NCBI RefSeq assembly: GCF_006345805.1
Contig: NC_043018.1
Location: 26,536,001 to 26,600,000 of the forward strand
Length of the DNA: 64,000 bases
Source: Octopus sinensis
Lineage: Eukaryota
Reading direction: 5' to 3'
Part shown: one piece after another, positions 8,318 to 64,000 of the stretch
How positions within the stretch are numbered: the first letter of the stretch is position 1
Layout: each line of letters begins with the position of its first letter
Position numbers and translations under genes: made by a program
The notes under the pieces: model-generated
Database searches by the model: none
Seen by the model: the letters and a program-made list of their open reading frames with translations, nothing else
What the model was told of the DNA's origin: nothing

Positions 8318-8790
8318 AAGGCAGCAAGCCTTAGTTCTGAGTTCAAATTCTGCCAAGGTTGGCTTTGCCTTTCATCCTTTCAGGGTTGATAAAATAAGTA
8401 CCAGTTGAACACTGGGGTTGATGCAATCACCTTCCCCAAAATTGCTGGCCTTGTGCCAAAATTTGAAATCAATATTTATCAAAACTCAAAGTTTCCATAC
8501 ACGTTTCATCAGTCAACCACTTTGGAATGAAGAATATTAGAGTCGGAATATTTAACGTTGGAATGTTCTAAGGTGGCAAACTGGCAGAATCATTAGTACG
8601 CTGGGCAAAATTCTTAGAGGCATTTCATCCATCTTCATGTTCTGAGTTCAAATTCCGCTGAGGTCAACTTTGCCTCTCATCCTTTAGGAATCAATAAAAT
8701 AAGTACCAGTTATGCACTGGGGTCAATGTAATCGACTTATCCCTCACCACAAAAACAAAATTGCTGCCCTTGTGCCAAAATTTGAAATAG
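8318..8790 (+). mobile_element. Two tRNA-derived SINE copies with the GTTCAAATTC...GCCTTTCATCCTTT..GG..GATAAAATAAGTACCAG core
   Basis: The same core recurs at about 26431, 27538, 37405, 39645, 43205, 50070 and 52090-52810. It resembles the Meta/Sauria-type SINE central domain (recalled, not verified). Confidence 0.75.
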
Positions 8791-9425: not shown

Positions 9426-9633
9426 ATTAGTCTCTGCAAATCGCTTTGCTTTTTTCGGCTTATTTCTTTGTTACTGTGATCACTGACAAAAATTTAATGA
9501 CTCATTATAATTAACAATTACTGTAGATTTCATTGATCGACTGGTTTTGTTTTTTGTGCTGTTTTTTCCTCACTAATTTTTCTAGAATAACATTAACTGT
9601 AGCATCTCTTATTATTATTATTATTTTCCCCAG

Positions 9634-9859
9634 GATATTTCCAAAGAGATAGAGAAGAATCTAACACCAAAGCAGTGTGCGGCGCTTGACTTGGCCCTGG
9701 ATACAATAAAGAACTATTTCCATGCTGGCGGCCAAGGACTTAAGAAAGCCTTCCTGGACAAAAGTGCTGAACTTCAATCATTACGCTATGCACTTTCATT
9801 ATACACTCAAACAACTGATACACTCATTAAAACATTCGTTAATACCGAAACACAACAAG
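9634..9859 (+). CDS. unc-13: unc-13/Munc13 exon, C-terminal MUN domain (phase 0 to 1)
   Basis: TTTTCCCCAG| acceptor and CAAG|GTATGG donor. Encodes [75 protein letters not shown], the hallmark Munc13 LTPKQC...[27 protein letters not shown] motif. Confidence 0.97.
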
Positions 9860-9894
9860 GTATGGTCATTAGTATCATTATTTTGTGTGTGCAT

Positions 9895-9978
9895 TTGTAA
9901 TGTGTCTTCTACTATAGCCTCGAGCCAACCAAAGCCTTGTGAGTGGATTTGGTAGACGGAAACTGAAAGAAGCCTGTC

Positions 9979-14616: not shown

Positions 14617-15149
14617 TATATATATCCACCATAATGAAATTGTTTTTTTATAATTTAAAGAGGAGAATGCAATTTCAGCATTATGGTAATTGTTTTAAAA
14701 AATTAAATAAGAATATACTTTCCATAGAAACTAAGAGACAAACATTGTGTGAATTTTATTGGAATTGAGTAAATAAAGGAAAATGTAGTTTTACTTGATA
14801 AAAAGTTAGAAACTATCAAAGATCTGAAGTAAATCACTTTTAAAGGTGGAAAATAAAATATAGCCGAAGCTGTTCATAGGATTTGAACTCACACCTCCTG
14901 TAAACATGGCAAACATTCAAAAGTTGACTTTGTCTTTTCATCCTTTCAAGGTCAATAAAATAAGTGACAGATAAACACTGGGGGTTACTATCATCGTCTT
15001 GTCCCTACCACCTCACAATTTCCAGCCTTGTGCCAAAAACCAAAAACCAATTATTTATTGCTTCATCCCTGTCGAATTCCACCATCAAAAATTATATGCA
15101 TTTTATATTTTCTGTATTGATGGGATTTTTCTTTTTCGTTTCTTATTAG

Positions 15150-15309
15150 TTGTTGCTTGCAATGATCTCAAATGGCAGACGGCTAGTATGTTCCGTCCGT
15201 TCGTTGAGGTACATCTCATTGGGCCCCACCTCAGTGATAAAAAGAGAAAACATTCTACTAAATCAAAGAGCAACAACTGGTCGCCAAAGTTAAATGAAAC
15301 CTTTCAATT
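15150..15309 (+). CDS. unc-13: unc-13 exon, C2C domain (phase 1 to 2)
   Basis: TTATTAG| acceptor and TT|GTAAGT donor. Encodes (V)[52 protein letters not shown]. Confidence 0.97.
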
Positions 15310-15462
15310 GTAAGTATGATTCCTTTTGAATTTTATGCAATCAACACCTCATTAGCTGTTGTTTTTTGTAAAAAATAAAAAGTTTTGAATGGTACAACAA
15401 TGCACTATAATATAGACTATGGGCTATATACCTGTAGTAATTTAGTCATCCATAGTCATCAA

Positions 15463-16616: not shown

Positions 16617-17013
16617 GTGCAGGCATGGCTGTGTGGTAAGAAGCTTGCTTCCCAACCACATGGTTCTGGGTTCAGTCCCGTTGTGTGGCACCTTGGGCAA
16701 GTGTCTCCTATGATAGCTTCAGGCTGACCAAAGCCTTGTAAGTGGATTTGGTAAAGGGAAACTGAAAGAAGCCTATCATATATGTGTGTGTGACAACATC
16801 TGTGTATGTCCCACCACCACCACCACTTGGCAACCAGTGTTGGTGTGTTTACGACCCCATAACTTAGCAGTCCAGCAAAAGTGACTGGTAGAATAAGTAC
16901 CGGGTTTAATAAAAAAAATAAGTAGTAGGGTTGGTTCGTTCAACTAAAAATTCTTCGTGGTGGTGCCCCAGTATGGCGACAGTTAAATGACTAAAACAAG
17001 TAAAAGAAAAAGA
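16617..17013 (+). mobile_element. Full-length tRNA-derived SINE (family also at 34553-34975 +, 40808-40970 +, 61690-62047 -, 62830-63010 -, 63667-63820 -)
   Basis: TGGCTGTGTGGTAAG A-box, GGTTCAGTCCC B-box, CACCTTGGGCAAGTGTC core and GTGCCCCAG...TGACTAAAACAAGTAAAAGA tail. Confidence 0.85.
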
Positions 17014-17861: not shown

Positions 17862-17913
17862 TACTGGTGCCATATATATATACTAACTATTACTTAACCA
17901 TCCTCTCACACCA

Positions 17914-17963
17914 TCTCCGATGAAGGGATATAATTAATAAATATCCTGGAAACAGCTGTAAGA
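17914..17963 (+). ncRNA. Minimal type-I hammerhead-ribozyme-like motif (U4C variant) in the last unc-13 intron
   Basis: TCT-CCGATGA-AGGGATAT-aattaataa-ATATCCTG-GAAA-CAGCTG-TA-AGA: short stem I, stem II, palindromic stem III, GUA triplet. Confidence 0.65.
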
Positions 17964-18048
17964 CCTTCTATGAATAAATGTTCTAATATCTACACAGCCT
18001 TGATTTTTTATCTCATTATGCAAAAAATTCTCATATATATATATATAC

Positions 18049-45665: not shown

Positions 45666-48539
45666 TTAATTAATGTTCCAAACACTAGCTTAATAATTCA
45701 ATAATGAGTTATTTTACAACAATTTAATAATTTAAGTTATTTTACAACAAGCAAAGTAGCTAGTTAGAAAGTCTCTATAAGAAATGAAAGTAGCAGCTAT
45801 ACCGAGAAGTAATGTTTGTCACCACTTCAACATGGCTCTTTGACATTACTACCATTTTTTAACCCCAGGAAGAGTCTCCTCCAGCTGGTTCTTCATTATT
45901 TACAAAATTGTCACAAAAGCGGTGCATTTCAACAGAAATATCATAAGAAAATAGTTAGTTAACAAATATTCTTTGAATTTGACCTGTGATAGAAAGAAAT
46001 CTCCTCCTCCGAAGGAGATTTCTTTCTCAGCTTTTAACACCAAGAATATCCATCTAGCCCTAAAGGATATTTTACAATTATTCAATAAAGGTTGACTACA
46101 GTTGGAATCGATGGATATTTAGGATGAAGATGGTACAGCACTGAACTAAATGCTTCAGGTCATGAACATTTTATTCCCAAGTTTTTTTAAGTTATTAAAA
46201 AAAATTTTTTTGTTTTTTTTTCGGTTAAATTCAAATATGAAATAATACAATTTATACATGTGTAAGTGTGGTATACATGTGCTATGGTGTGATGTGGGCA
46301 CTGTTGATCTTCTAATCAAAACAAGTTAACGATGTTTCCATTAGTTTTCAATTGCAGAACTGTTGCTCTTCTGTTGCTAGGATGGCATGAGGTGGGACTT
46401 GAACTCAAAATGCACAGAACTAGAAACAGCTGGCATAAACTATCTTGACCGATGCTCTAACAAGTCTGTCAATCTATCATCTCAGACTTATCGACCCTTG
46501 AAAAGATGAACAAAGTTGACCTCAGTCTGTTTTCGACCCTTTAGCATTCAGAGTTCTCTGTCAAATGTAATGCTTATTTGTTCACATTGTTTTTGAATTA
46601 ATCATCCATTATCTCATAGCTTTGAGATTTCCATGATGTCAGTGTTTATTTTTAGAATGACATTGTAGGGTAGGTGTGAGAGGCTAGATCTGGCTTCTTC
46701 CAACATAAAATAGGTAGAATATTTGAGCCTGGTATGGCCGGTTTATAATGACATGCTGAAAAGTTCCTGACTTTGGACAAAAGAAAATACAGGAGGATCA
46801 GTTTATTATGGTTTTATTCGACATATTCCCCACTCAGATTCACACACTTATTGCAGCAGCCCTTCAGTTTTTCTAAGCCTTGTAAAAGAACTTGGAAAGT
46901 TGGGCCTCCAATCAGCCCTTTTGTGATGCCCTTAACCTTTTTGTTACTGTATTCATTTGGAGATGCTCTGTGTTTCTTTCAATTACTTTAAATATAACAA
47001 AGAATGTAGTAAAATAACTTAGTCATCATTCAGTTAGTGTTAGGAACATAAATTGTAACTAAGGTTTGGTGGAAGATTTTAATTCAAATCTTATGAAAAC
47101 AAGACACTTGTACCACAGAGCCAGAGGCAGTTTCAGGCGGGTTGGTATCAAAATGGTTAAGAATTGCTTCTCTATTATATATTTTAACCCTTTTGTTACC
47201 ATATTTCTGTTGAGGTGCTCTGTGTTTCTTTCAATTAATTTTAAATATAACAAAGAATTTAGTAAAATAACTTATTTATCTTTGAGCTAGTGTTAGGAAC
47301 ATAAATTGTGACTAAGGTTTGGTGAAAGATTTTAATTCAAAACTTATGAAAACAAGATATTTGTACTCAGAGCCAGAGGTGGTTTCAGCCAGGTTGGTAA
47401 CAAAAGGGTTAAAGCTAGGAAATTTTCAACAGTTCCTTGTAAATGTTAAAGGGTTAAACTCAGATTGCAGTGAGCCAGAACAGGCTCTGCAAGGGATTCC
47501 ATCCAATGTTCTAATGATTCCACTAATCAGCCTTAAATTCTTACATGCATGCAGATGTATATACATTAATCAATTAATTAATTAGTTTAATGTTATGCAA
47601 ACATGCAAACTTAATTATCATAACTGCTTCAATGTCCACATAGTGCCAAAACATCATCTTTTTTTTTTTTCAAATGTTCAGATATGATAACATTAGTTTC
47701 ATTGTGTACAGAATAAATTATGCAAATTATGTAAATTGTGATATAATAAATATTTAATGTGATAATTCTTTAATTACAACGTTCTTTTGTAACGACGCTC
47801 CTATCCAACGACGCTCCTATAATGTAGGGTTGCCATATATCTCCTCTTTGGCATGGCATTCATGCTTGCCTTTCTCTATTATACTGCAGCCTTTCAACGC
47901 CAGTATAAATCCACCTTCATCTTTCAAATACTAACCGTTCACACACACATACACGAACATACATACATACACTTCGTAGTGGGAGCTTTTTCATTTTTCC
48001 TTTACCCCCCCCCCCCCCACCGTTGTTCTTTTTCTATGTTGAAAGTTCCTTCAGTCTCCTACACTAGTGCTGGTGACATGAAAACGGCAACCAATGCATA
48101 GTGTAATGTGGTTGGCATTAGGAACGGTATCCAGCTGTTAGAAAACCATGCCAAAGCTGACATTGGAACTTGGCACCACAGCCCTGCTGCTCATCAGATC
48201 CTGTCAAAAAAATCCAACCCAGCAAGGCCACAGTCAAATGACTGAAACAAGGGAAAGAATAAAAGAATACACATGTATATATCATCATTGTTCTAACGTC
48301 CAATTCTCCATGCTTGCATGGGTCAAACAGAATTTGTTGAGGCAGATTTTCTACAGCTGGATGCTCTTTCTGTTGCAAACCCTCATTTGTTTTCAAGTAA
48401 AGTGATATTTCCCCATAGCTAGACATGTTCTTCATTGCAAAATGGAAGCAAACAAACTCACTTCTATAGCAGTGATGCCCATTTACAACCATCATATGAT
48501 ATATATATATGTATAAATCGAAATCAAAATCAAAGTGAA

Positions 48540-49268: not shown

Positions 49269-50230
49269 ATATTTTAATGTTTGTCTTTGTTTAGCTGTAA
49301 TAAAAACAATTTTATATTAATCTGAAGGATCACTCTATACTTTTGTAGAGTACAAATTTATTATCCTTACACAGAATGTTGTTGACAGTGACCTTGAAGT
49401 TTCAGCCAGCTAAGCCATTGTCAGACTGCTGACAGTTTGATGATGGCTTAGCTACATCAGCCACCTGTCTCTTGAGCCAGGCTCCTGATGGTTCCTCAGC
49501 CTGTTTAAAATAGCAGCCAGATCTCATCTCCCTCAAATCACACTTTATTACCTTAACCCTTTCGTTACCAACCTGGCTGAAACCGCCTCTGGCTCTGCTG
49601 TACAAATGTCTTGTTTTCATAAGTTTTGAATTAAAACCTTCCATCAAACCTTAGTCACAATTTATGTTTCTATCACTAGTTTAATGACAACTAAGTTATT
49701 TTACCAAATTCTTTGTTATATCTAAAATAATTGAGAGAAAAACAGAACATCTCAAAATAAATTCAGTAACGAAAGGGTTAATAAAAAAAACAGGATAATG
49801 TAGCTGTAGATTTTCTGCATCTGGAAAACATGGTATGGTCATGGCTGGAACCCCTTTAATCTCAAGTCACCTGCTGAATTAGGACTGCCCTGGAGTTAAA
49901 TAACAGTCTATATAAAGAATGTAAGATCATCTGTTGAGAATTAAGTGTCTCAGAAACCAGGTCTGCTCTGAGATTATGATCAACAGTGTTAAAATCATGA
50001 CCATCCCATGTCATCATTTAATGTCTGTTTCCGATGCTGGCATGGGTTAGGTGGTTTGAATGGTGTGGGTTAGGCGGCGAGCTGGCAGAAACGTTAGCAC
50101 ACCGGGCGAAATGCGTGAGTTCAAATTCCACCGAGGTCGACTTTGCCTTTCATCCTTTCAGGGTTGATAAATTAAGTACCAGTTATGCACTGGGGTCGAT
50201 GTAATCGACTTAATCCGTTTGTCTGTCCTT

Positions 50231-61875: not shown

Positions 61876-63466
61876 CATATATACGACAGGCTTCTTTCAG
61901 TTTCCGTCTACCAAATCCACTCACAAGGCATTGGTCGGCCCGGGGCTATAGCAGGAGACACTTGCCCAAGATGCCACGCAGTGGGACTGAACCCGCAACC
62001 ATGTGGTTGGTTAGCAAGCTACTTACCACACAGCCACTCCTGCGCCTATATATAGGAAAAGAAAAAGTTTGGTTTTAATTGAAACAATTCCAAAGTGAAG
62101 TAAATAGATGGACAGGTGGCAGAGTCATTAGCATGATGGACAAATGTTTGGTGGATTTTTCTTCTGTTTCTTTATGTTCTGAGTTCAAATCCCACTGAGA
62201 TTAATTTTGCCTTTCATCCTCTCAGGGTTTATAAAATAAAGAAATGTTGCTAAGCATTTTGTTCAGTTTTTCAATGATTTTGCCAGCTTGCTGCCTTAAT
62301 AATAATAATAATAATAACAATAATGGCTTCAAATCTTGTGACAAGGGCTGCAGTTTTGGGGTCAGAGATAAGTCGATTACATCAACCCCAGTTTTCATGG
62401 GTACTTAATTTATCGACCCCTAAAAGGATGAAAGGCAAAGTACCAGTCAAGTATGTCAGCAATTGTACCCTTCTCTCAAAATTGCTGGCCTTGAAAATGG
62501 TGCCAGTCTATCACAGGGTGACTCATCTGTAGCTGAGTGGACAAGAGCAATGAAGTGTTTTGCTCAAGAACACAAATCACTGCCCACTCCAGGAATCAAA
62601 TCCACGATCATCTTATGCAACACCCTAACCACTGGCCCACGTGTACTTTTATTTCAGCGGGCCCAGAAGGATGAAAGGCACTGTTGACCATGGCAGGATT
62701 TGAACTCAGGATAAACACTACATGGTGCTAAGTCCCATGCTCAAACAACTCCTTAATTAAATCTGAAATTGACCTCGATTGGATTTGAACTCAGAACATA
62801 AAAAAGTGGAGCAAATACTGCATTCATTTATCTTTTTATTCCATCATTTGACTGCAGCCATGCTCGAGCACCACCTTTATTCAAACAAATTGACCCCAGG
62901 ACTTATTCTTTGTAAGCCTGGTACTTATTCTATTGGTTCCTTTTGCTGAACTGCTAAGTTACGGGGGATGTAAACACACCAACATTGGTTGTCTAACGAT
63001 TGTGGAGGGACAAACACAGACACACAAATACACACATACATACATATATATATATAATATATATATATATTATATATATATACAAGTGAGTGGACAAATG
63101 AACAAAGGACATTCAACCAATTTATTGGAAGTTACATGTATAGGTCAAAACAGTTTGATTCAAATTCACTGCTACTCTTGAGTTTCAAGCATGATGCTAG
63201 TCATCAGCCATTTTGAATTTTTAATGAGAGAACTTAATTGTTATTATTGTAAGGTGGGCTGCAATTGGTTGAGGAAGGTCATGTGGTGTATCCATATATA
63301 TATATATATATATATATATCATCATCATCATTTAGCGTCCGCTTTCCATGCTAGCATGGGTTGGATGGTTCAACTATATATATATATATATACACACACA
63401 CTGAAGTAAGCACATAAATGTGAAACAAGGTGGACAAAAGAGTACTCAAATACCAGAGGTAGAGTA

Positions 63467-63628
63467 ATATACTTTATTTAAAAGCAGCAGATATGTAGCA
63501 AAAGCTGTTACTCGGAGTTTCCCGTTCCCGTTCATCGGACAGTCTTTTTTTAACAAAACTGTCCGATGAATGGGAATGTGAAACTCCGAGTAACAGCTTT
63601 TGTTACATTTCTGCTGCTTTTAAATAAA

Positions 63629-63634
<6 letters not shown>
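63467..63634. ncRNA. Inverted repeat (77-bp arms) with a minimal hammerhead-like motif in each arm (63504-63543 -, 63558-63597 +)
   Basis: Plus: ACTGT-CCGATGA-ATG-GGAA-TGT-GAAA-CTCCGAG-TA-ACAGC. Minus: ACTGT-CCGATGA-ACG-GGAA-CGG-GAAA-CTCCGAG-TA-ACAGC. Confidence 0.75.
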
Positions 63635-63667
<33 letters not shown>

Positions 63668-64000
63668 GATGGGCTTCCATCTACCAAATCCATTCACAAG
63701 GCTTTGGTCAGCCCAAGGCTATAGTAGAAGATACTAGCCCAAGGTGCCACACAGTGGGACTGAACCCGGAACCATGTAGTTGGGAAACAAGCTTCTTACC
63801 ACACACAGTCACTCCTGTGTCATGGTGGTATTTTGTTCATTGCTGTAACAATTCTGTCTCTCCACCCCTTTAATTAAATCTGAAATCAGTGAGATTTGAA
63901 CTTAGAACATCCAAGAAGTGGAAGAAAAACTATGTGGTTGCATTTTGTCCACTGCCTTAATAAATCATGAAATGAAAGTAACAGACATAGATACTTATTT

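What the first reader, a model, noticed from the sequence alone, without database searches (positions are those of the whole stretch)
63467..63634. Inverted pair of minimal hammerheads (CCGAUGA variant), one on each strand
Seen: 77-bp inverted arms with a 14-nt spacer, ending in (TA)n. Each arm holds ACTGT-CCGATGA-[ACG-GGAA-CGT consensus, GNRA-capped stem II]-GAAA-CTCCGAG-TA-ACAG, with stem I pairing CTGT/ACAG and a GUA site. The U4C core is shared with the unrelated-sequence motif at 17914, which suggests a tolerated lineage variant rather than decay. Inference: the clearest example of the system. A transcript from either strand contains one ribozyme plus its antisense, so the long hairpin would compete with and silence the catalytic fold.
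Basis: partly seen in the sequence, partly recalled or inferred. Interest (0 to 1): 0.75.

Follow-up and report, generated by a model that had tools for sequence, protein, structure and literature searches.

The report
Penelope retrotransposon end with variant hammerheads
The two back-to-back hammerhead motifs are the decayed ends of a Penelope-type jumping gene, a layout its insertions commonly leave in this animal genome; the one unusual point is that three distantly related families here, one with intact genes, spread while carrying a core change (U4C) that is predicted to slow RNA self-cutting.

Summary
The inverted repeat is real (72 of 77 pairs, 14-nt spacer), but it is not a symmetric ribozyme/antisense device. 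The left arm runs on for about 70 nt to 63400. The whole is a 5'-truncated insertion of a Hydra-clade Penelope-like element (PLE) in (TA)n: a tailed 3' end plus an inverted, tail-less copy. Of 93 sampled loci, 62 are head-to-head and 43 have a hammerhead in both arms. The layout is published for PLEs, including a Hydra element with a hammerhead on each strand. The hairpin would block the ribozyme fold, but a single arm cannot fold its stem III anyway, and the copy is old. The U4C reading holds and extends. C4 is the master state in this family (727 vs 106), in the family at 17914 (also Hydra, EN about 33% identical) and in a third family with intact 708-aa ORFs (96 of the first 100 of 2,080 matches). 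The youngest sister subfamily has canonical CUGAUGA and nests inside the C4 copies. All 26 published Hydra hammerhead rows I saw have U4. U4C is known from a viroid, where it lowers activity. Cleavage is untested. Verdict: known architecture, new core variant.

The parts
63378..63399 (.). Left (TA)n/(CA)n flank, the microsatellite target
   Evidence: sequence; (TA)n preference of Hydra PLEs
63400..63471 (-). PLE tail, about 72 nt (+67 to +138 counted from core C3), ending at the second fixed end site; in full elements it leads into the ORF
   Evidence: alignment to family copy L070; L144 structure; 88% match to L144 over 63405-63547
63472..63548 (-). Left arm: 3' pLTR of the tailed copy
63509..63538 (-). 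Minimal type I hammerhead motif, core CCGAUGA (U4C), predicted cut after the A at 63509; stem I CUGU/ACAG flanks it
   Evidence: cleavage not tested
63544..63557 (.). Head-to-head junction; the arms meet in a T-run (likely microhomology join)
   Evidence: the join mechanism is inferred
63549..63629 (+). Right arm: inverted, 5'-truncated, tail-less pLTR copy ending at the first fixed end site (AATAAAG)
63563..63592 (+). Minimal type I hammerhead motif, core CCGAUGA (U4C), predicted cut after the A at 63592; stem II weakened by two CpG-type changes
   Evidence: cleavage not tested
63630..63667 (.). Right (TA)n flank
   Evidence: sequence
17890..18030 (+). Separate solo relic of a second Hydra PLE family (family B); hammerhead core at 17917-17960 also C4

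Best explanation
This is an old, 5'-truncated insertion of a Hydra-clade Penelope-like retrotransposon, made of a tailed 3' end and an inverted tail-less copy, likely produced when both ends of a cut (TA)n site each primed reverse transcription at one of two fixed sites and the two short cDNAs were joined head to head. Shown: family identity, linkage to an RT plus endonuclease ORF, the two fixed ends, the frequency of the inverted layout, and C4 as the master state. Inferred: two-ended priming, and a template 5' end just upstream of the core (most arms stop 2-20 nt before it). The hammerhead is the ordinary pLTR ribozyme, predicted to cut only as a dimer through its palindromic stem III and probably with help from the element's protein. 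U4C likely slows it without abolishing the fold. This is tolerated because uncut RNA is likely the template for insertion. The hairpin at this locus is a by-product with no shown function.
For: Linkage: copies extended upstream share about 2 kb and reach an ORF; L111 has a hammerhead on each side of a decayed ORF with DKT, RT motifs and a C-terminal endonuclease flanked by CxxC and CxH. These match the Hydra definition. Intact sister L144 has (TA)n, inverted pLTR, direct pLTR, tail, a 711-aa ORF, 3' pLTR, tail, (TA)n. Layout: 62 of 93 loci are head-to-head; in 54 of the 62 one arm ends at the first site and the other at the second; 8 are degraded or complex; none clearly has two tails (counted by hand). 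In 4 loci (L176, L202, L226, L251) the two arms share no element sequence, so neither was copied from the other. Published: inverted 5'-truncated copy and one-sided tail (PMC8557442); Penelope-13_HM listed with a hammerhead on each strand; two RT start sites, both strands cut and extended, ribozyme mutants still insert (PMC11167929). C4: 727 vs 106; family B 78 CG, 10 TG, 12 CA in the first 100 of 361, i.e. symmetric CpG decay from C4; family D 96 C4 and 4 U4 in the first 100 of 2,080, with 708-aa ORFs carrying RWK, DKT, YKDD and CxCX5C. Stems I, II and III keep pairing with different letters across these lineages.
Against: No cleavage data. Comprehensive mutagenesis of another hammerhead found low activity for all single mutants of the CUGA turn (PMC9901934), so C4 motifs may be nearly dead. 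Family A lacks the usual G10.1-C11.1 pair and its stem II folds at only about -1 kcal/mol. The youngest family-A wave has U4 (61 of the first 100 of 3,815 matches), which could mean selection for activity. For the 43 pairs whose arms overlap, fold-back self-priming (PMC3846280) is not excluded. Clade placement rests on motifs and a by-eye comparison with Hydra-1_Obim, not on a tree with reference proteins; Pfam found nothing in L144 or the L111 pieces. The tail (about 72 nt) and unit length (3.2-3.35 kb) exceed the published 30-40 bp and under 3 kb.
Confidence: 0.8

Rival explanations
1. Same element, but the C4 hammerheads are catalytically dead or irrelevant. The fold persists as a protein-binding, promoter or priming signal, and position 4 drifts between C and U helped by CpG mutation.
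For: HHR mutants do not affect insertion in vitro (PMC11167929). CUGA-turn mutants have low activity. In the A lineage both changes towards the young core (C7 to T, then C4 to T) are CpG transitions. Copies that begin at the predicted cut site are rare and not clearly enriched: 5 loci at +30 against 2 at a control position, p=0.45.
Against: G5, A6, G8, A9, GAAA and the UH site are unchanged across lineages whose endonucleases are about 33% identical, while the stems change and stay paired. U4C keeps enough activity in vivo for viroid infectivity (PMC3088659 passage).
Confidence: 0.3
2. The inversion arises by fold-back: a single cDNA snaps back and copies itself (self-priming), and the endonuclease trims the second arm at the first site.
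For: Palindromes at inverted junctions were read this way (PMC3846280). Many pairs are nearly symmetric: 34 of 62 partner arms start between -20 and -2 (counted by hand). Arms are almost identical in young copies (4 of 483).
Against: Four loci have non-overlapping arms, and either the tailed or the tail-less arm can be the longer one.
Confidence: 0.25
3. One reading: a selected sense/antisense pair in which the hairpin silences the ribozyme (or feeds small-RNA or editing pathways).
For: The hairpin dominates on both strands (-135.8 and -125.9 kcal/mol); hammerhead pair probabilities are below 1e-15.
Against: Hundreds of such pairs are expected from the family's insertion mode. The arms have diverged more (5 of 68) than the family mean (53 of 1081). 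One arm cannot close stem III. No exon was found near the site among the 35 window frames scanned.
Confidence: 0.04
4. A non-autonomous retrozyme or a MITE-like DNA element with terminal inverted repeats.
For: Short, non-coding, high copy (1,464 first-look candidates), flanked by TA.
Against: Copies extend into an RT-EN ORF with variable 5' truncation. Direct repeats occur in only 3 of 93 loci. The ends are asymmetric.
Confidence: 0.02

Closest known systems
Hydra-clade PLEs (Craig et al. 2021, PMC8557442; seen: passages, section 11, supplement parts 1-2 and search hits), especially Penelope-13_HM, Hydra-2_aMil, Hydra-2_aJap, Hydra-1_oBim
   Same: C-terminal endonuclease with CxCX5C linker, RWK, DKT, CxxC/CxH; (TA)n targets; inverted 5'-truncated copy; one-sided tail. 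Hydra-2_aMil has the same CTGT/ACAG stem I, ACTC-N-GAGT stem III and A17. Penelope-13_HM is listed with a hammerhead on each strand.
   Different: All 26 Hydra rows (25 families) in File S2 have CUGA; here three lineages have CCGA. Tail about 72 nt instead of 30-40; unit 3.2-3.35 kb. Family A has a 2-bp stem II with a GNRA loop.
Minimal PLE hammerheads (Cervera and de la Pena 2014, PMC4209133; seen: main text parts 1-2 of 4, passages of supplement file 2; file 1 not searched)
   Same: Type I, short stem I, palindromic stem III, predicted dimers, low in vitro activity; dual motifs on opposite strands were already noted.
   Different: Their descriptor required 'cuganga', so C4 cores were excluded; the core variant they report is U3-A8. 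Their consensus has G10.1-C11.1, which family A lacks.
PAc of Anolis (Frangieh et al. 2024, PMC11167929; seen: main text parts 1-2 of 4)
   Same: Two RT start sites that define the tail; AT-rich targets; both strands cut and extended; protein-assisted ribozyme that is not needed for insertion.
   Different: Penelope/Poseidon clade; the passages name C3 and G8 but no change at position 4; the inverted layout was not explained there in the parts I read.
Viroid U4C hammerhead variant (Perreault et al. 2011, PMC3088659, passages; the primary paper, Ambros and Flores 1998, was not held); CYGANGA descriptor (PMC13481778, passages)
   Same: Natural U4C core; much lower activity in vitro, enough in vivo; Y at position 4 is already used in a search descriptor.
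   Different: There it is a variant in a full-size viroid or viral ribozyme; here it is the master state of thousands of genomic copies in a minimal, dimer-type motif.
Adineta vaga Penelope elements (Arkhipova et al. 2013, PMC3846280; passages)
   Same: Head-to-head inverted pLTRs, optional tail on one pLTR, palindromes at junctions.
   Different: Explained there by self-priming on an antisense template; the non-overlapping pairs here need two priming events.

Membership tests
Hydra-clade PLE | Single ORF with RT and C-terminal GIY-YIG-type endonuclease linked to the repeat | tested here: met
   L111 (decayed, hammerhead on both sides) and intact sister L144; Pfam gave no hit, so domains are read from motifs
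Hydra-clade PLE | RWK and DKT motifs | tested here: met
   DKT in L111; RWK and DKT in L144 and family D; the RWK region is missing from L111
Hydra-clade PLE | CxCX5C linker; CxxC and CxH around the conserved E and N; no CCHH | tested here: met
   CxCX5C in L114, family B and family D; the young sister has lost the second C; absence of CCHH judged by eye
Hydra-clade PLE | Insertion into (TA)n | tested here: met
   this locus and most printed loci
Hydra-clade PLE | pLTRs in tandem or inverted order, tail on one end | tested here: met
   62 of 93 inverted; 54 of 62 clearly one tailed and one tail-less arm; tail longer than published
Hydra-clade PLE | Generally under 3 kb | tested here: not met
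   hammerhead-to-hammerhead 3.16 kb in L111 and 3.35 kb in L144; a tendency in the paper, not a strict criterion
Hydra-clade PLE | Phylogenetic placement with reference Hydra RTs | not tested
   only compared by eye with Hydra-1_Obim and others printed; the tree has unnamed outgroups
Minimal type I hammerhead | Core CUGANGA | tested here: not met
   C at position 4; the other core positions are intact
Minimal type I hammerhead | GAAA, UH cleavage site, stem I closing both ends | tested here: met
Minimal type I hammerhead | Palindromic stem III able to pair between two copies | tested here: met
   self-duplex -7.8 kcal/mol; 1-nt loop as monomer
Minimal type I hammerhead | Stem II with G10.1-C11.1 | tested here: not met
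   A opposite T, G or A, then 2 bp and a GNRA loop
Minimal type I hammerhead | Pairing kept with changed letters | tested here: met
   between subfamilies and lineages A, B, C, D, one real copy each; no formal covariation statistic
Minimal type I hammerhead | Match to Rfam hammerhead models | tested here: inconclusive
   no hit at the locus, but none either for the canonical CUGAUGA copies in L144
Minimal type I hammerhead | Self-cleavage | not testable with these tools
   needs an assay
Non-LTR retrozyme | Non-coding tandem units each with a hammerhead | tested here: not met
   direct repeats in 3 of 93 loci; linked to an ORF
MITE | Symmetric terminal inverted repeats with fixed ends | tested here: not met
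   arms end at two different sites and have variable inner ends

The most novel reading that the evidence does not exclude
In this host, Hydra PLEs have repeatedly adopted a U4C hammerhead as a tuned-down but working ribozyme. At least three lineages with about 33-35% identical endonucleases spread thousands of C4 copies, one still with intact ORFs, and one lineage then switched back to U4 in its youngest wave. Slower cutting would keep the RNA whole long enough for both target ends to prime at the two start sites. The genome would then hold a natural, dated C4/U4 series for testing what PLE ribozymes are for, and CUGA-only searches would have missed a whole class of animal hammerheads.
Probability: 0.3. 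Interest if true: 0.65.

Novelty: new variant of a known kind. Interest (0 to 1): 0.4.

Why it matters
The role of hammerheads in Penelope-like elements is open: they are nearly universal yet slow, and dispensable for insertion in vitro. Families that amplified with a core change reported to lower activity show that full-speed cleavage is probably not required. The close C4 and U4 subfamilies of family A differ at only a few motif positions and allow a clean side-by-side assay. Published PLE searches fixed 'cuganga', so such motifs are undercounted. The strict one-tail rule and the non-overlapping pairs help to separate two-ended priming from self-priming. The locus itself is an ordinary relic.

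Tried and rejected
Rfam: only sub-threshold miRNA-type hits at the locus, reflecting the hairpin; uninformative for hammerheads because canonical copies are also missed. Expression: no RNA holder listed. Contigs of four runs with four organism labels (X1, X8, X12, X19; RNA status a guess) were laid twice. They cover the core; no other-letter row appears at C4 among the rows shown (5 rows not shown), and cover rises sharply just upstream of the core. Contigs cannot show RNA ends, so this is weak. Fossil test for cleaved templates: copies with a non-A before the +30 cut position gave 31 matches against 9 at a control position. Of the 30 viewed, most were intact motifs with a one-base loss in an AA run or a point change; true junctions were 5 loci against 2 (p=0.45). 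Rejected as evidence. A-to-I editing as the source of U4C: partner arms show no excess beyond subfamily differences (T>C 16, A>G 11, G>A 22, C>T 11); dropped. Pfam GIY-YIG search of the genome found other PLEs, not this family's ORF. My motif scanner first missed family D; it was found by reading the sequence. No PLE ORF lies in the window. Not-in-print check: searches 'hammerhead'+'U4C' (1 paper), CCGAUGA/CCGANGA/CCGACGA/CYGANGA, 'octopus'+'hammerhead ribozyme', and searches showed no PLE U4C report in listings or in the passages read. Lunse et al. 2017 (about 150,000 short-stem-III variants, recalled) and Ambros and Flores 1998 were not held; either may bear on novelty. One supplement file of PMC4209133 could not be searched, and the Craig supplement was cut when stored.

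Full report
Observation. The inverted repeat is there: arms 63467-63543 and 63558-63634 pair at 72 of 77 positions around a 14-nt spacer. The 17-nt word spanning stem III and stem I occurs twice in the window, against 0.09 expected. Each arm has a hammerhead-like core with C at position 4.

A high-copy family. The window lies in a 2.72-Gb animal genome; that it is an octopus is my inference from size and repeat content, not a tool result. The arm has 1,464 first-look candidates. Exact 35-nt patterns gave 727 copies with C4 and 106 with U4. The majority core is CCGACGA (92 of the first 100 listed, counted by hand); this locus has T at the free position 7.

It is the end of a Hydra-clade PLE. 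Walking upstream gave copies that share about 2 kb. L111 has a hammerhead on each side of a decayed ORF with DKT, RT motifs and a C-terminal endonuclease with CxxC and CxH; L114 has the CxCX5C linker. These are the features given for the Hydra clade (PMC8557442 section 11). A protein search found a young sister subfamily with 78% endonuclease identity and open frames up to 766 aa. L144 shows the full order: (TA)n, inverted pLTR, direct pLTR, tail, 711-aa ORF, 3' pLTR, tail, (TA)n. Placement was not tested on a tree with reference proteins, and Pfam gave no hit for these ORFs.

The inverted layout is routine. I fetched 93 loci: the first 40 distinct loci of the list and 53 chosen by subfamily from the first 100 rows. 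Of these, 62 have a head-to-head partner, 43 with a hammerhead in both arms, and 3 have a direct repeat. In 54 of the 62 pairs one arm ends at the first site (+66 from C3) and the other at the end of the tail (about +138); 8 are degraded or complex; none clearly has two tails (counted by hand). Four loci have arms that share no element sequence, which needs two priming events. 34 of 62 partner arms begin 2-20 nt upstream of the core, which suggests a template 5' end there (inference). Craig et al. describe the inverted 5'-truncated copy and the one-sided tail and list Penelope-13_HM with a hammerhead on each strand. Frangieh et al. show two RT start sites, cutting and extension of both strands, and insertion without ribozyme activity. 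Arkhipova et al. proposed self-priming for junction palindromes; that remains possible for overlapping arms.

The hairpin. A read-through RNA folds at -135.8 kcal/mol, against -64.7 with hammerhead pairs enforced. But stem III has a one-base loop and pairs only between two copies (self-duplex -7.8), so one arm is predicted inactive regardless. The arms differ at 5 of 68 positions, against 53 of 1081 in 16 family-A pairs, 14 of 588 and 4 of 337 in the two middle C4 groups, and 4 of 483 in the young U4 group (one young pair aligned over only 11 nt). The copy is old. The only exon-like hits among 35 window frames scanned were MUN and C2 domains at 9.6-15.3 kb.

U4C is a master state in three lineages. 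Family B (17914) is also Hydra-type, with CxCX5C and about 33% endonuclease identity to family A. Its first 100 of 361 matches are 78 CG, 10 TG and 12 CA at positions 4-5: U4 appears no more often than a change at G5, as expected from CpG decay of a C4 master. A relative at about 57% identity also shows C4 (L353, L356), while several more distant relatives show U4. Family D has 708-aa ORFs with RWK, DKT, YKDD and CxCX5C, 44% identical to L144, and the core CCGAAGA in 96 of the first 100 of 2,080 matches. Across A, B, C and D the stems differ in sequence and still pair, while the other core positions stay fixed (one real copy each, no statistic). Within lineage A, the first 100 of 3,815 matches with a GCAA loop are 61 young CUGAUGA, 36 C4 and 3 other U4 (counted by hand). 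In a protein tree of 23 genome rows and 3 unnamed outgroups (L113 and L157 left out as too short), the 12 U4 rows group with the C4 copy L161 (99/100), and two older C4 copies lie next out with weaker support (87/88). Since all 26 published Hydra rows have U4, the simplest history is U4 to C4 early, C4 through several waves, and a return to U4 in the youngest. Long branches of decayed copies and unknown outgroup cores weaken this. A different PLE family in the genome uses the known U3-A8 variant.

Is C4 active? Not shown. U4C is a known natural viroid variant, weak in vitro but sufficient in vivo (PMC3088659 passage). All single CUGA-turn mutants were weak in a mutagenesis screen (PMC9901934 passage). 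One recent search descriptor already allows Y at this position (PMC13481778 passages). My fossil test for insertions that start at the cut site was negative after artefacts were removed.

Other papers: bioRxiv 10.64898/2026.07.22.740005 (part 1 of 5 read) for the retrozyme definition; PMC6765202, PMC3376415, PMC6155905 and PMC13282606 (passages only; the last reports recently active Penelope families in Octopus vulgaris and does not mention ribozymes in its main text). Earlier AI notes in this scan describe the same two-site head-to-head footprint for other repeats; they are not independent support.

Verdict. Known element type and known layout; the silencing idea is unsupported. The new part is a U4C hammerhead core as the amplified state of three distant Hydra lineages, with a natural U4 revertant. 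Interest 0.4.

Noticed in passing
window 9586-9897 and 14975-15310 (+): Exon-like frames with MUN (E 1e-26) and C2 (E 4e-5) domains, an unc-13-like gene (name recalled from the domain pair); the family B relic at 17914 lies just downstream.
   Followed up: no
window 8483-8512 (-): A further hammerhead-like motif with canonical CTGATGA core and imperfect stems, possibly a relic of another family.
   Followed up: no
window 16620-16661 (-): 42-bp match (88%) to the outer end of L144, probably a small fragment of the same family beside (TA)n.
   Followed up: no
L349-L352 (e.g. G000:C3:133910300-133916000): Family D: young Hydra PLE with intact 708-aa ORF, CCGAAGA core, 6-bp stem I, branched stem II and GUU site; 2,080 exact matches, many as head-to-head pairs.
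   Followed up: partly
L098, L107, L110: Another PLE family with RVT_1 and GIY-YIG hits and open frames near 780 aa, whose hammerhead has the U3-A8 core variant.
   Followed up: partly
L162-L254: Most arms stop 2-20 nt upstream of the core whichever end site they start from; a likely RNA start site inside the pLTR.
   Followed up: partly
L260, L261/L262, L265, L269, L277: Five young loci where both arms begin within about a base of the predicted cut site; not significantly more than at a control position.
   Followed up: yes
L142-L150, L158-L160: The young U4 subfamily has lost the second cysteine of the CxCX5C linker yet is the most abundant recent wave.
   Followed up: no
window 63668-63815 and 61885-62050: Copies of an abundant short repeat flank the region; recalled as a tRNA-derived SINE, not tested.
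   Followed up: no
window 46932-47161 and 49552-49781: 230-bp inverted pair, 86% complementary, 2.4 kb apart.
   Followed up: no
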